Assembly: GCA_038087875.1 (NCBI GenBank)
Contig: CM075995.1
Span: 10,914,001-10,978,000, forward strand
Origin: Malacoraja senta
Taxonomy: Eukaryota
Direction: 5' to 3'
DNA length: 64,000 nucleotides
Shown one piece after another: positions 51,419 to 62,648 of the stretch. A program made the position numbers and the translations under genes. The first letter of the stretch is position 1, and each line of letters begins with the position of its first letter. Below the pieces are notes generated by a model. It made no database searches. It saw only the letters and a program-made list of their open reading frames with translations, and was not told where the DNA came from.

Positions 51419-51585
51419 CTGTTATTCTTGTCCACTGAAATATCTCTCGTATGTTAACATGAAGCTGACTTTGTCCACCGCTTCTTCTGTCGTCTGCTCT
51501 AGCCTCTCACGGTAATAATTTGTCAATTGAAATAGTTGATCATCATCCATCACTTTCAGGAGCTCAGTGATTATAGATATTGCAT
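51419..51585 (-). pseudogene. NLR-like receptor exon (first half of the N-terminal death-fold-like domain) with an in-frame stop
   Basis: Acceptor ttgcttacag| and donor CAG|GTTGAG. Reads (D)AISIITELLKVMDDDQLFQLTNYYRERLEQTTEEAVDKVSFMLTYERYFSGQE*Q, with TAA at 51422-51424. Confidence 0.78.
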
Positions 51586-52476
51586 CTGTAAGCAAAATGG
51601 GGGAAACCACAAAACATATTATCAAACTTATGTGGGCCGTAAGATTGCGTCTTTCAATGGAACCGCTCAAGGATGTTAGCAACCCTCGCATACAGAATGC
51701 AGTTCATTGATATGTAAAGTGGTCTTTGAGAGACAAGTTCCCTTGTCTCCCCTCTCCTCCAAGGTCCGTTTAACCTGGAAAATGTACCCAGAGTTGAAGA
51801 GAAGTAACTGGTCCTGGGGCTCCGATGATCATCTTTGATTGTTTTACATTTGTTCAGACTAGGCAGTGGGCCGAGGAGCTTTATTCCAGTGTTTCGTGAC
51901 CCAAGTCACCAAACTACATGAAATTTTAACATATTGTGTAAAAATATTATATACATCACACCTTAAACTCGTTATGAACAAGACTTGCACATTTTTTATT
52001 AAATTAGAGATAAACCGGAACATTTTCGGGTATTTGTAGTCCAATCAAAGCACGTTTAACATTGAGTTGTACGGCAGTTGGCCAATCACGCGCTTTGTTT
52101 CAGGCTAGCTAGGCAGGGAGCACTGAGAGTGCTTCACTGATGCCCGTTTTACTGGAGATTCCGATGAAGATTCTTTCTAGTTCTGTGGAATACATGTTGT
52201 GGAAACTTGCAGCAGGGTAATTGAATTTAGTGAGAAAAATTTAGTGAGAAAAGCATTAAGAAGTCTGAAGAATGTGCTGCTAAGTGGATGGAAGTGGAAC
52301 AAAGCCTTGAAAGCAAAGTCGCTGCTGAGGTGCTGCAACACAAAGGGGACAGCCAGGAATCAACTCTAACGGAAAGGTAAGATCTAAAGTCTGAATTTAT
52401 GAAAATCTATCTGTAGGGACTTTAATTAATTTAATTGCACCCTTTTATAATGTGAAAATGAGATTTGGAGGCTGTA

Positions 52477-52592: not shown

Positions 52593-53059
52593 CAGCGGCG
52601 ACCCGAGCCCGGCAGCGGCGACCCGACTCGGGCTTGGAGCTGTGGCGGCGGCAGCAGCAGCAGGGCGACCCGACTCGGCCTCGGAGCTGTGGCAGTGTTC
52701 CAGCGGCAGCGGCGACCCGACTCAGTCATGGAGCTGTGGCGGCGGCAGCAGCAGCAGCGGCAGCGGTAGCGGCGACCCGACTCGGCCTCGGAGCTGTGGC
52801 GGCGGCAGCGCCGACGCGACTAGGCCTTGGAGCTGTGGCTGTGGCGGCGGCAGCGGCCCGACCTCGGAGGCTCGGCCGCGGGCCCGGCGGACTCGGCCGT
52901 GGGCCCAGTGGACGACATCGTCTGGAGCTCGCGGATCACAGGTTGGTGACCTGTTTTTCCGGAACTCCCGCAACGACAGCTTCGTCCGCTGGTCTGGAGG
53001 GCGGCAGCTTCGGCAGCTTCGACCAAAGACACTAGAGGAGCTATATAATCTTTGGAGGG

Positions 53060-53232
53060 AAGGGGGGGAGAGAGGGAAGGGAGGGAGGGAAAGAACGGAG
53101 AGAGATGGAGAGAGGGAGGGAGATCGAGAGAAGAGAGGGGAGAGAGAGAGATCGGGAGAGGAGAGGGGAGAGAGAGAGATCGAGAGAAGAGAGGGGAAAG
53201 AGAGATCGAGAGAAGGGGAAGAGAGAGAGATC
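53060..53232. repeat. GA-rich low-complexity tract
   Basis: Read directly. Confidence 0.95.
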
Positions 53233-53468
53233 GAGTCTGACTCCGCGGTGTTTTCGATCCAGCGCCGCCCGCCCGCGGCGGGACGCCCTCAGACCGCAGA
53301 CCGCAGACCCTCGATGTTGGTGGTCGGCAGACACAGCACTCCGGAGCGGCGACCCGGCAAGGCATCACCCGCTCCGTGTTGGTGTCCCAGCGCTGAGAGA
53401 GAGAAGGGGAGAGGGAGAGGGAGAGTGGAACGATGGCACGTTATAACGCGCAGCCGTCCCATTCCGAC

Positions 53469-53504
53469 CAAAGATTATAGAGCAGAGCTCCTCTAGTATC
53501 TTTG
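53469..53504. mobile_element. 36-bp fused-TIR remnant with perfect 8-bp TSD
   Basis: ATTCCGAC|CAAAGATTATAGAGCAGAGCTCCTCTAGTATCTTTG|ATTCCGAC. Confidence 0.85.
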
Positions 53505-53547
53505 ATTCCGACCGCCGCCGCCGAATCCCCCGCCCCACCATTGCACC

Positions 53548-53584
53548 CAAAGATTATAGAGCGAGTGGAGTTTTATAATCTTTG
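53548..53584. mobile_element. 37-bp fused-TIR remnant with perfect 8-bp TSD
   Basis: ATTGCACC|CAAAGATTATAGAGCGAGTGGAGTTTTATAATCTTTG|ATTGCACC. Confidence 0.85.
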
Positions 53585-53689
53585 ATTGCACCCTTCTTCA
53601 CGGCGGGTTGTGATCTTTGCTTGTGGTGTCTCCACAATTCGAGGGACATAACCGGTAACAGCCGCCGCGTTCTCGGACCCGAATGTGAG

Positions 53690-53748
53690 CTGGAAAAATC
53701 TCGTGGTGGGCCTAATGTGTCCCGCGGGCCATATTTTGGAGACCCCTG
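53690..53748 (-). mobile_element. Single hAT (Charlie/Buster-like) transposon end
   Basis: The minus strand begins CAGGGGTCTCCAAAATATGGCCCGCGGG, typical of vertebrate hAT termini. The partner end was not found. Confidence 0.55.
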
Positions 53749-53956
53749 CCTTACAAGAACAAAACCAAAAACGTACAGAAGTGTTAAAATTATTGACTTT
53801 ATTATTGGTAAATAAAGATCTATTAAAAATAATTCCAATAACTTTCTAATGTACCGACAAACCTAGTTTCCCAATGACCGTTGATGGGAGACCAGAAAAT
53901 AACATTTTCAGTTCAGAATAAAATCGACAGATGTCAAATATAATATATTTTCTCAC

Positions 53957-54066
53957 CTTTCTTTTTTATCGGGGAACCTAAAGAATGACAGGTCGGGTCG
54001 TTTACATTGACGATTAGAGCAATTGATAGCAGAGCAGTGAGATGAAGATTTAGATGTAGATGCCAT
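53957..54066 (-). pseudogene. First exon of a THAP zinc-finger transposase (orphan)
   Basis: MASTSKSSSHCSAINCSNRQCKRPDLSFFRFPDKKE(R): C-x4-C and FxFP THAP signature, then a phase-2 donor AG|GTGAGA. Confidence 0.8.
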
Positions 54067-54889
54067 GACTGTAGTCGAGGCACGCGGTAAAATGGCGTCA
54101 ACAATCACCCATGGCATACTACCCTTTTTTCGCTGAGTGGCGCATCTTGCTCCGCTATATAATCTTTGGATTCGACCACCCTGGGCGGTGGAGTTTGAAC
54201 CGGCCCGTTCGCGGAGCAGGGTTGAGCCGCGGGACTGACTTACTTTACCATCACCCGGTGGGGTCACAACATCTGAATTACCATCACCCGGTGGGGTCAC
54301 AACATCTGAAGCCTGGATCGCCTCGGCGCAGAGGGAAAACAAAGAGGAAGAGGCAGAGACTTTAAGGTTTTGCCTTCCATCACAGTGAGAAGGTGCCTGG
54401 TGAACTCACTGTGGTGGATGTTAAATTTGTGTTTATTGTGTGTTTTTGTCATTTTTATTATATGTATGACTGCAGGCAACGAAATTTCGTTCAGACTGAA
54501 AGGTCTGAATGACAAAAATAAAATTCAATTCAATTCATTCATTCATTCATTCATTCATTCATTCACAACCCGTTAATTAGGCTGGTTCAGGAGCAGGACC
54601 TCTGCGACAGTGTCATTAAAAAAACACTCACAATTATATTCATCATATTATTTTAATATAATATAATTATAATTAATTATATATGATTACAGTCATATTT
54701 ACAAGTTATAGTTTAAATGGACTGCATATAGTTTAAATGGACTGCAACACGGAAATAGGCTGCCCATGGTGTAATATGGGCATTGACAGCTAGATGGCGG
54801 TCACGTTCCCGATCTCATTTTCTAATTAGTTTAATTAATTAATGTGCAGCTTTTGGCAATGACGAGTTATGACTTCCTTCTCAATTATA

Positions 54890-61770: not shown

Positions 61771-62648
61771 TGGCAGCGCTGCCCTAGTAACTGTGGCTCG
61801 CCTGCAATCTGTCGGTTTTTTCTTTTTGTTGTTGTTTTCTTTTGTCCTGTTTTAGTTACATTTATTTTTTTAGGTTGTGAATGTGTGGGGTGGGGGGGGC
61901 GGGGTGGGAGAAACATGTTTTTGGTCACTTCCTTCGAGGGAAGTCGACCTTTTCTTGTCGTATCCCCCGTCTCCGTCTGCACTGAGGCCTAATGGCGGAA
62001 CTGGCGGCCTCCAACTGGGACCGACCTCGAGGCTCCGGAGGCAGAGCCAGCCAGGACTTACCAACGCGAGGCTGGCCGACTTCGGTGCTGTGGTGGCGTT
62101 GCGGCGGTGGGCCGACTTTAGGGCTGTGGCGGTGTTCCGGCGGCGGCGGCCCGACTTCGGGGCTGTGGCGGCGTTCCGGCGATGGTGACCCGACTTCGGA
62201 ACCTCGGAGGGTCGGCCGTGGGCCCAGTGGACGACATTGCTTTCAGGTCACAGGTTGGTGACCTGTGTTTTCGGAGCTCCCGCAACAACGGCTTCGTCCG
62301 CTGGACTGGATGGCGGCAGCTTCGACCGCCCCGGGCCGCGGAGATTGAATCAGCCCGTTCGCGGAGCTCGGTTTCAGCCGCGGGACTGACTTACTTACCA
62401 TCACCCACAACATCGAAAGCCGAGATTGCCTCAGCGCAGAGGGAGACAAGGAGGGAAGAGACAAGGACTTTAAGACTTTTGCCTTCCATCACAGTGAGGA
62501 GGTGCCTGGTGGACTCACTGTGGTGGATGTTAAATTTGTGTTTATTGTGTGTTTTGTTATTTTATTCTATGTTATGACTGCAAAGCACGAAATTTCGTTC
62601 AGACCGAAAGGTCTGAATGACAATAAAGGATACTTATATTTACTTATA
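61771..62648 (+). mobile_element. Non-coding retroposon (about 880 bp) inserted into CR1
   Basis: Splits the CR1 sequence gtgaag|aaagcgaatgg. 3' hairpin TTCAGACC-GAAA-GGTCTGAA, AATAAA and a TACTTATA-repeat tail. Homologous to 52593-54565. Confidence 0.8.

What the first reader, a model, noticed from the sequence alone, without database searches (positions are those of the whole stretch)
53461..53592. Candidate P-element excision footprints in a vertebrate genome: 36- and 37-bp fused TIR ends with perfect 8-bp TSDs
Seen: two tiny inserts, each flanked by an exact 8-bp duplication (ATTCCGAC and ATTGCACC). Each consists only of about 16-20 nt of one transposon end joined to about 16-19 nt of another end, all starting CAAAGA. 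The first insert's halves match the two different ends of the surrounding THAP-bearing element (CAAAGATTATAxAGCxGAGC and CAAAGAyACTAGAGGA). Established: Drosophila P transposase makes 8-bp TSDs and cuts with 17-nt 3' overhangs, so end-joining leaves about 15-17 nt of each TIR at the donor site. Inference: these are scars of full insert-then-excise cycles by a P-superfamily transposase with the same long staggered cut, in the germline of a cartilaginous fish or of an ancestral source copy. Vertebrate P elements are mostly known from domesticated THAP9 and fish relics.
Basis: partly seen in the sequence, partly recalled or inferred. Interest (0 to 1): 0.85.

Follow-up and report, generated by a model that had tools for sequence, protein, structure and literature searches.

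The report
Fossil P-element scars mark cut site
This vertebrate genome holds over a thousand 22-56-base leftovers made of two fused P-transposon tips between target duplications; they are likely repair scars left when the elements jumped out, and their lengths suggest the enzyme cuts at a repeated five-base motif rather than at the fixed 17 bases known from flies.

Summary
Both inserts and their exact 8-bp duplications are real. They belong to a genome-wide class: at least 1,188 loci of one end group. Of 101 independent sites checked, 94 keep the duplication, 61 sequences differ, and 91 are 29-38 bp. The cognate element exists: 7.5-7.9-kb P elements encoding a transposase with all three catalytic residues, plus a 595-bp MITE whose two ends are exactly insert 1's halves. 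The two flagged inserts were not made here. They are passengers in the P element's first intron, and the 37-mer is probably a mutated 33-mer. The likely local scar is the 31-mer at 53,024. Retained tips stop sharply at GAGC (18, 19 or 20 nt by end type; 2 of 202 ends go further), just before an AAGAT that repeats TIR nt 3-7. In 7 of 9 distant P families nt 3-7 recur likewise after 16-25 nt, with five different pentamers. Best reading: excision scars from a long staggered cut of variable length, positioned by that repeat, which fits the fold-back pairing seen in the fly transpososome. Not shown: a full element and a scar at one site, or cleavage in vitro.

The parts
53461..53468 (.). 8-bp target duplication ATTCCGAC, left copy
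53469..53504 (.). 36-bp scar: 20-nt C-type tip plus 18-nt A-type tip sharing GC; passenger in the P intron
   Evidence: parent ends in the 595-bp MITE; same site in 15 of 91 loci
53505..53512 (.). 8-bp target duplication ATTCCGAC, right copy
53540..53547 (.). 8-bp target duplication ATTGCACC, left copy
53548..53584 (.). 37-bp scar, probably a later-mutated form of a 33-bp scar; passenger in the P intron
53585..53592 (.). 8-bp target duplication ATTGCACC, right copy
53024..54168 (-). 1,145-bp truncated P element: 5' end, THAP exon, intron to a GA-rich repeat, then a capped 3' tip; flanked by GCTTCGAC (53016-53023) and GATTCGAC (54169-54176)
   Evidence: 90.5% colinear with the first 1,153 bp of P copy L073
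53024..53054 (-). 31-bp fused scar forming the element's 3' end; junction found once in the genome, so likely made at this locus
53957..54066 (-). first THAP coding exon (MASTSKSSSHCSAINC...), followed by a GT donor
   Evidence: Pfam THAP positions 1-28, E 0.002, below the curated cut-off because only a fragment
54135..54168 (-). full B-type 5' terminus; AAGAT at 54144-54148 repeats TIR nt 3-7 and marks the inferred cut
62212..62626 (+). paralogue of the host repeat without the 1,145-bp element (empty site, single target)

Best explanation
These inserts are likely donor-site scars of a recently mobile P-superfamily transposon: the transposase would cut each end in a long stagger, leaving 18-20-nt single-stranded TIR tips on the flanks, which end-joining would then fuse, mostly through 1-2-nt microhomology at the GC tip. 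Shown: the scars, their target duplications, their length cap, their parent ends and a cognate P transposase. Inferred: the non-transferred strand is cut at GAGC/AAGAT, immediately before a repeat of TIR nt 3-7, so that the transferred strand can fold back and pair there, and the loop between can vary in length. The two flagged scars arose once, when small P elements inserted into and left the intron of a master P copy, and were then copied with it. The window's truncated element likely records a later local excision with aborted gap repair.
For: Cognate element: 7.5-7.9-kb copies with 8-bp TSDs, 96-99% identical; Pfam PF12017/21787/21788/21789; D202/D292/E520 align with fly D230/D303/E531, E 2.5e-44 to 6p5a. 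Scars: 94 of 101 independent sites keep the TSD within one mismatch (shuffle mean 1.5, maximum 7 in 2,000), 61 distinct sequences. TSD base preference matches that of full ends (G 60 against 56%, T 73 against 75% at positions 1-2). Cap: 95 of 202 ends stop exactly at GAGC and 2 pass it; bases that cannot come from the partner end reach 18 and never more in 114 A-type ends, but 19-20 in 13 of 88 B/C/D ends. Two full blunt 20+18 joins exist genome-wide. Only 131 strand matches pass the cap within 60 bp; 12 of the 30 inspected have a TSD and 6 have one long end with the other capped. Further TSD-flanked one-offs of 49-367 bp show the same asymmetry, and two carry other inserted DNA, one copied from its flank. 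Junctions: 67 of 100 with 1-6-nt microhomology, 4 blunt, 29 with insertions or later mutation, the same classes as fly P donor sites (PMC2895639 Table 1). Empty sites: L008 for both flagged sites, window 62.3 kb for the surrounding element. Fold-back: in 7 of 9 distant P families nt 3-7 recur exactly after nt 16-25, with five pentamers; other pentamers 0-1 of 9; shuffle mean 0.36, 0 of 20,000 reach 7. The fly structure shows the transferred strand doubling back onto the 5' part of the other strand, with a disordered loop (PMC7776569 section 8).
Against: No site was found with a full element in one copy and a scar in another: none at flagged site 1. Identical scars recur at unrelated sites (one 31-mer 11 times, two 36-mers 7 times each), which a mobile micro-element would also give. 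Much of the genome-wide count is passengers: 154 rows collapse to 101 sites, and 25 D-type rows to about 10. Patterns demanded 11-14 intact bases per end and at most 56 bp, so short and decayed scars are under-sampled. The GC at the cap is a palindrome, which itself favours joins there. The nine distant TIRs have no visible TSD and are not all independent (three pairs share DNA similarity). In the fly TIR (PMC11368186) nt 18-22 match nt 3-7 at only 3 of 5 positions plus one wobble, and the base-pair register in the solved structure could not be read.
Confidence: 0.85

Rival explanations
1. The inserts are a family of mobile micro-MITEs, 30-36 bp long, copied from a few masters by the P transposase.
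For: A few sequences recur identically at unrelated sites with fresh TSDs (11, 7, 7, 5, 5, 5 times among 101 sites). TSD preference equals that of full elements.
Against: 50 of 61 sequences are singletons, and the recurrent ones are those predicted by pairing of the GC or C tip. They lack the AAGAT...CCACTC segment carried by 2,475 full ends. A P-type stagger of 17 nt or more at both ends would leave such a unit with almost no duplex (inference from PMC7776569). Asymmetric one-offs tie the class to donor-site repair.
Confidence: 0.06
2. They are excision scars, but the cut is at one fixed distance (about 18-20 nt) for every end, and the cap at GAGC only reflects trimming to a favoured GC microhomology.
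For: The 36-mer can be read as 18+18 and the 34-mer as 17+17 without overlap; most capped ends owe their last 1-2 bases to shared sequence. A few short joins's list can be read as A-type 19-20.
Against: 13 B/C/D ends keep 19-20 bases that cannot come from the partner, while none of 114 A-type ends passes 18. Blunt 20+18 joins exist. The pentamer repeat moves from nt 17 to nt 26 across families.
Confidence: 0.12
3. They arose without transposase, by deletion of the interior of resting elements between their inverted repeats (hairpin slippage or repair of random breaks).
For: Long inverted repeats can promote deletion (general knowledge); junction microhomology fits any end-joining.
Against: Such deletions should keep variable parts of the roughly 32-bp conserved end on both sides, but retention stops at a fixed motif in 200 of 202 ends. 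In the longer TSD-flanked one-offs inspected, typically only one end is long.
Confidence: 0.04

Closest known systems
Drosophila melanogaster P element donor-site repair products (PMC2895639, Table 1; PMC7776569)
   Same: 8-bp TSD kept, TIR tips of both ends fused, short microhomology, templated insertions, incomplete gap repair followed by end joining; transposase homologous with D230/D303/E531 conserved.
   Different: Here seen as a natural fossil record of more than a thousand loci in a vertebrate. Tips are 18-20 nt and differ between ends, against a uniform 17 nt. The two ends of one element may differ within the tip.
Zebrafish Pdre2 / zfTHAP9 (bioRxiv 10.1101/2024.03.22.586318)
   Same: Vertebrate P-like element with TIRs, 8-bp TSD and internally deleted copies.
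   Different: Pdre: about 50 copies, 13-bp TIRs of other sequence, excision but no integration in assays, larger donor deletions. Here 2,475 full ends, at least 150 transposase matches and 96-99% identical long copies.
P-associated MITEs such as BuT5 (PMC3698922)
   Same: The 400-bp and 595-bp families here are P-mobilised MITEs of that kind and are likely parents of many scars.
   Different: The 22-56-bp inserts lack the subterminal segment and are heterogeneous, so they are not read as MITEs.
Domesticated human THAP9 (PMC7776569)
   Same: Same protein superfamily.
   Different: THAP9 lacks TIRs and copies; this is a mobile family. Its closest named relatives are mollusc proteins at 37-42%; the closer hits (56-81%) are unnamed.

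Membership tests
P superfamily transposon | THAP, HTH, split RNase H with GTP-binding insertion | tested here: met
   PF12017, PF21787, PF21788, PF21789 above cut-off; THAP only as an exon fragment below cut-off
P superfamily transposon | Catalytic D, D, E as fly D230/D303/E531 | tested here: met
   D202, D292, E520 of the L061 frame
P superfamily transposon | TIRs and 7-8-bp TSD around the gene | tested here: met
   L061-L065 and L078 have matching 8-bp flanks and CAAAGAT ends
P superfamily transposon | GTP-dependent cut-and-paste activity; complete spliced gene | not testable with these tools
   769-790-aa open frames exist; full splicing and activity were not established
P excision footprint | TSD kept on both sides of fused tips | tested here: met
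   94 of 101 sites
P excision footprint | Retained TIR capped at the overhang length | tested here: met
   200 of 202 ends at or below GAGC
P excision footprint | Overhang of exactly 17 nt as in Drosophila | tested here: not met
   27 of 71 clean joins need 18-20 nt from one end; unambiguous 18 (A) and 19-20 (B/C/D)
P excision footprint | Heterogeneous junctions with microhomology or templated insertion | tested here: met
   61 sequences at 101 sites; 67 of 100 with microhomology
P excision footprint | Same site seen with the full element | tested here: inconclusive
   none at flagged site 1; four runs on one other locus uninformative
MITE | Homogeneous size and sequence from few masters | tested here: not met
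   50 singletons among 61 sequences, though six sequences recur 5-11 times
MITE | Complete ends as in the mobile elements | tested here: not met
   scars stop before the segment carried by 2,475 full ends
hAT transposon (also 8-bp TSD) | hAT transposase as cognate enzyme | tested here: not met
   elements with these TIRs encode a P-type protein

The most novel reading that the evidence does not exclude
The 17-nt stagger of the fly P element is one value of a variable. Across the P superfamily the non-transferred strand is cut just before a direct repeat of TIR nt 3-7, which lets the transferred strand fold back, and overhangs range from about 16 to 25 nt. This vertebrate genome preserves over a thousand natural scars that map the cut to the base, and carries a P family young enough that a working vertebrate P transposase may be recoverable.
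Probability: 0.65. Interest if true: 0.82.

Novelty: new variant of a known kind. Interest (0 to 1): 0.72.

Why it matters
The long staggered cut is the oddest feature of P transposition and, in the papers seen here, is measured only for the fly enzyme; how the ends reach the fold-back shape is called unclear in PMC7776569. These scars give a genomic read-out of the cut for a vertebrate P family, and a sequence rule that predicts the cut site in any P element. Both can be tested with oligonucleotides. They also give a natural record of germline end-joining outcomes, a way to count excisions against surviving elements, and a candidate vertebrate P transposase where the zebrafish enzyme failed to integrate.

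Tried and rejected
Exact pattern for a doubly empty intron site: 0 matches; a diverged empty paralogue turned up in held locus L008 instead, with a less clean right flank at site 1. Full element at flagged site 1: 5 matches to the degenerate pattern, none with that TSD. Sequencing runs: 24 found; four laid on a locus with two scars. One run carries the 40-bp scar unchanged, no contig bridges the 36-bp scar, and no empty or full allele was seen, so no verdict. The 115-bp 'elements' among the 226 matches of 57-132 bp were checked as possible mobile units; they are internal parts of larger elements without their own TSD. The 18-23-bp class is partly chance (181 against 48 control; 6 of 15 inspected have a TSD within one mismatch) and was left out of the statistics, as was one nested row. 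A strict TIR-plus-TSD scan of 80 metagenome loci found nothing; long TIRs without visible TSD were then used. No scars were seen in those 80 loci. Ten paper searches listed no report of genome-wide natural P footprints, of P elements in cartilaginous fish, or of the repeat rule; listings only, and Repbase and subscription journals are not covered. Earlier scan findings: none. Rejected: hAT origin; formation of the two flagged scars at this locus.

Full report
Observation. Both inserts are as described: 36 bp at 53469-53504 between ATTCCGAC copies and 37 bp at 53548-53584 between ATTGCACC copies. A third fused insert of 31 bp lies at 53024-53054. It forms one end of a 1,145-bp element (53024-54168) flanked by GCTTCGAC and GATTCGAC. 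A paralogue of the host repeat at 62.2-62.6 kb lacks that element and has the target once.

The cognate transposon. A Pfam search of the genome scored 150 of 300 candidates for the P-type RNase H domain, all above cut-off. Fetched copies are 7.5-7.9 kb (one 5.0 kb), begin and end with CAAAGAT, have matching 8-bp flanks in L061-L065 and L078, and are 96-99% identical. The long frame carries PF12017, PF21787, PF21788 and PF21789 and aligns with fly P transposase (E 2.5e-44), with D230, D303 and E531 conserved. A THAP exon precedes it (below cut-off as a fragment). A complete spliced gene was not reconstructed. Full ends, defined by CAAAGAT...AAGATRSRCCACTC, number 2,475 (control 2). The part before AAGAT varies in sequence and length: 18 nt in 41, 19 in 11, 20 in 27 and 14 in 1 of 80 held ends. 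A 595-603-bp MITE (8 copies, 96.3-98.7% identical) has exactly the two ends that make up insert 1. The host's class was checked only through a CR1-type LINE, whose named relatives are bird and turtle proteins.

The flagged pair are passengers. Both sit in the first intron of the long copies and of their deletion derivatives, with the same flanks; 15 of 91 loci fetched are this one site. Insert 2 occurs as 33 bp (15 matches) and 37 bp (11) in held loci, overlaps not fully removed. The 33-bp form reads as a 20-nt tip plus a 15-nt tip sharing GC with one substitution, so the window's form is probably derived. L008 holds the same host segment with each target once. The window's own element is colinear (90.5%) with the first 1.15 kb of a long copy, breaks in a GA-rich repeat and ends in the 31-bp scar, a junction found once in the genome. 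I read it as a local excision with incomplete gap repair; excision between a nested and an outer end is an alternative.

The class genome-wide. Patterns give 456 matches for A+B/C tips, 1,188 loci for the wider A/B/C group and 1,880 strand matches for D tips, controls 0 each. I held flanks for 170 rows (listed matches only, weighted to the first contigs), dropped the 15 of the chance-rich 18-23-bp search and one nested row, and collapsed 154 rows to 101 independent sites; three merges look wrong, which makes the count conservative. TSDs: 72 exact, 22 with one mismatch, 7 worse; shuffled flanks give 1.5 on average, 7 at most. Lengths: 91 of 101 at 29-38 bp, with peaks at 31 and 36. There are 61 sequences, 50 seen once; six recur 5-11 times. 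Junctions (100 sites of the earlier clustering): 67 with microhomology, 4 blunt, 29 with insertions or later changes. TSD composition matches that of full ends. These are the classes reported for fly P donor sites (PMC2895639, section 7 with Table 1 read).

The cap. Of 202 scar ends, 95 stop exactly at the GAGC before AAGAT and 2 go beyond. Counting only bases that cannot come from the partner end, A-type ends reach 18 (16 of 114) and never more, while B/C/D ends reach 19 (6) or 20 (7) of 88, with single cases of 21 and 25. Against the GAGCC subtype nine A ends score 19; I counted them as 18 because in most the extra C is also the partner's base. Two full blunt 20+18 joins exist. Only 131 strand matches pass the cap within 60 bp. 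Of 30 inspected, 18 lack a TSD, and 6 have one long end with the other capped. Among 25 longer candidates picked by eye, TSD-flanked one-offs of 49, 66, 79, 98, 109, 131, 328 and 367 bp show that same asymmetry, as expected from gap repair aborted on one side. A fixed 17-nt overhang cannot build 27 of 71 clean joins.

Why the cut would sit there. AAGAT after the cap repeats TIR nt 3-7, so the 3' end of the transferred strand could pair with the new 5' end of the other strand. The fly strand-transfer complex shows such a fold-back, required for transposition, with a disordered loop (PMC7776569, section 8 read). I noted this prediction before testing it. Among 80 metagenome loci encoding distant P transposases, nine families at 32-41% identity had long TIRs. 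In seven, nt 3-7 recur exactly after nt 16, 17, 20, 21, 22, 23 and 25, using AAGAT, GAGAT, CAGAA, TATAG and GGGAG; the other two match 4 of 5. Thirteen other pentamer positions recur in 0-1 of 9, and 0 of 20,000 shuffles reach 7. Limits: no TSDs confirm those ends, one TIR start was read from one side only, and three pairs of loci share DNA similarity. In the fly TIR as printed in PMC11368186 (one passage), nt 18-22 could pair in this register at 4 of 5 positions, one by wobble. The primary structure paper was not available, so the register is inferred.

Rivals. A mobile micro-MITE explains the recurrent identical copies but not the singletons, the cap or the asymmetric one-offs, and such a unit lacks the conserved inner segment. 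A fixed-distance cut with trimming to GC is harder to exclude but does not explain the 18 against 20 difference or the moving repeat. Transposase-free deletion predicts no cap. The direct proof, one site with a full element and with a scar, was sought and not found.

Comparison and verdict. The element is a member of the P superfamily by every feature testable here. The inserts work like fly P footprints but fail the 17-nt criterion. Zebrafish Pdre2 (bioRxiv 10.1101/2024.03.22.586318, passages) and BuT5 (PMC3698922, passages) are the nearest described relatives in kind. Ten searches of the held library listed no account of such a fossil record or of the repeat rule, but Repbase and the key structure paper could not be checked. 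New variant of a known kind; interest 0.72.

Noticed in passing
L061:8410-8445, L063:8026-8066, L065:1176-1221; L140:1501-2095: The long P copies carry a third scar about 135 bp from the 3' end with a variable number of 5-bp units (36, 41, 46 bp), and the 595-bp MITE carries further scars and half-tips: these elements seem to insert into each other often.
   Followed up: partly
window 53337-53355 and L072:1146-1166: The window holds the empty form of a site at which P copy L072 has a 21-bp scar.
   Followed up: partly
L013-L016 (G000:C1:121779077-121779462): A 31-bp scar has become part of a tandem repeat unit of about 90-100 bp (five copies).
   Followed up: no
L009:1383-1532: A 150-bp TSD-flanked insert has two capped tips around about 105 bp of unrelated repeat DNA plus an extra tip: possible capture of foreign DNA during repair.
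   Followed up: no
L182-L184, L188, L195, L181, L085 and similar: Several high-copy host repeats carry D- or A-type scars as passengers, which inflates genome-wide counts and could date those repeats relative to P activity.
   Followed up: partly
L301:4934-4969 in runs X21 and X2: Contigs from runs of two other coded organisms hold the same 36-bp scar sequence at other sites, so the family is probably shared by related species.
   Followed up: partly
G000 small contigs: Most of the 150 scored transposase matches lie on small unplaced contigs rather than the large ones.
   Followed up: no
window 51422-51703 (-): A 93-aa open stretch that does not look like the surrounding LINE pieces may be an exon of a host gene next to the element.
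   Followed up: no
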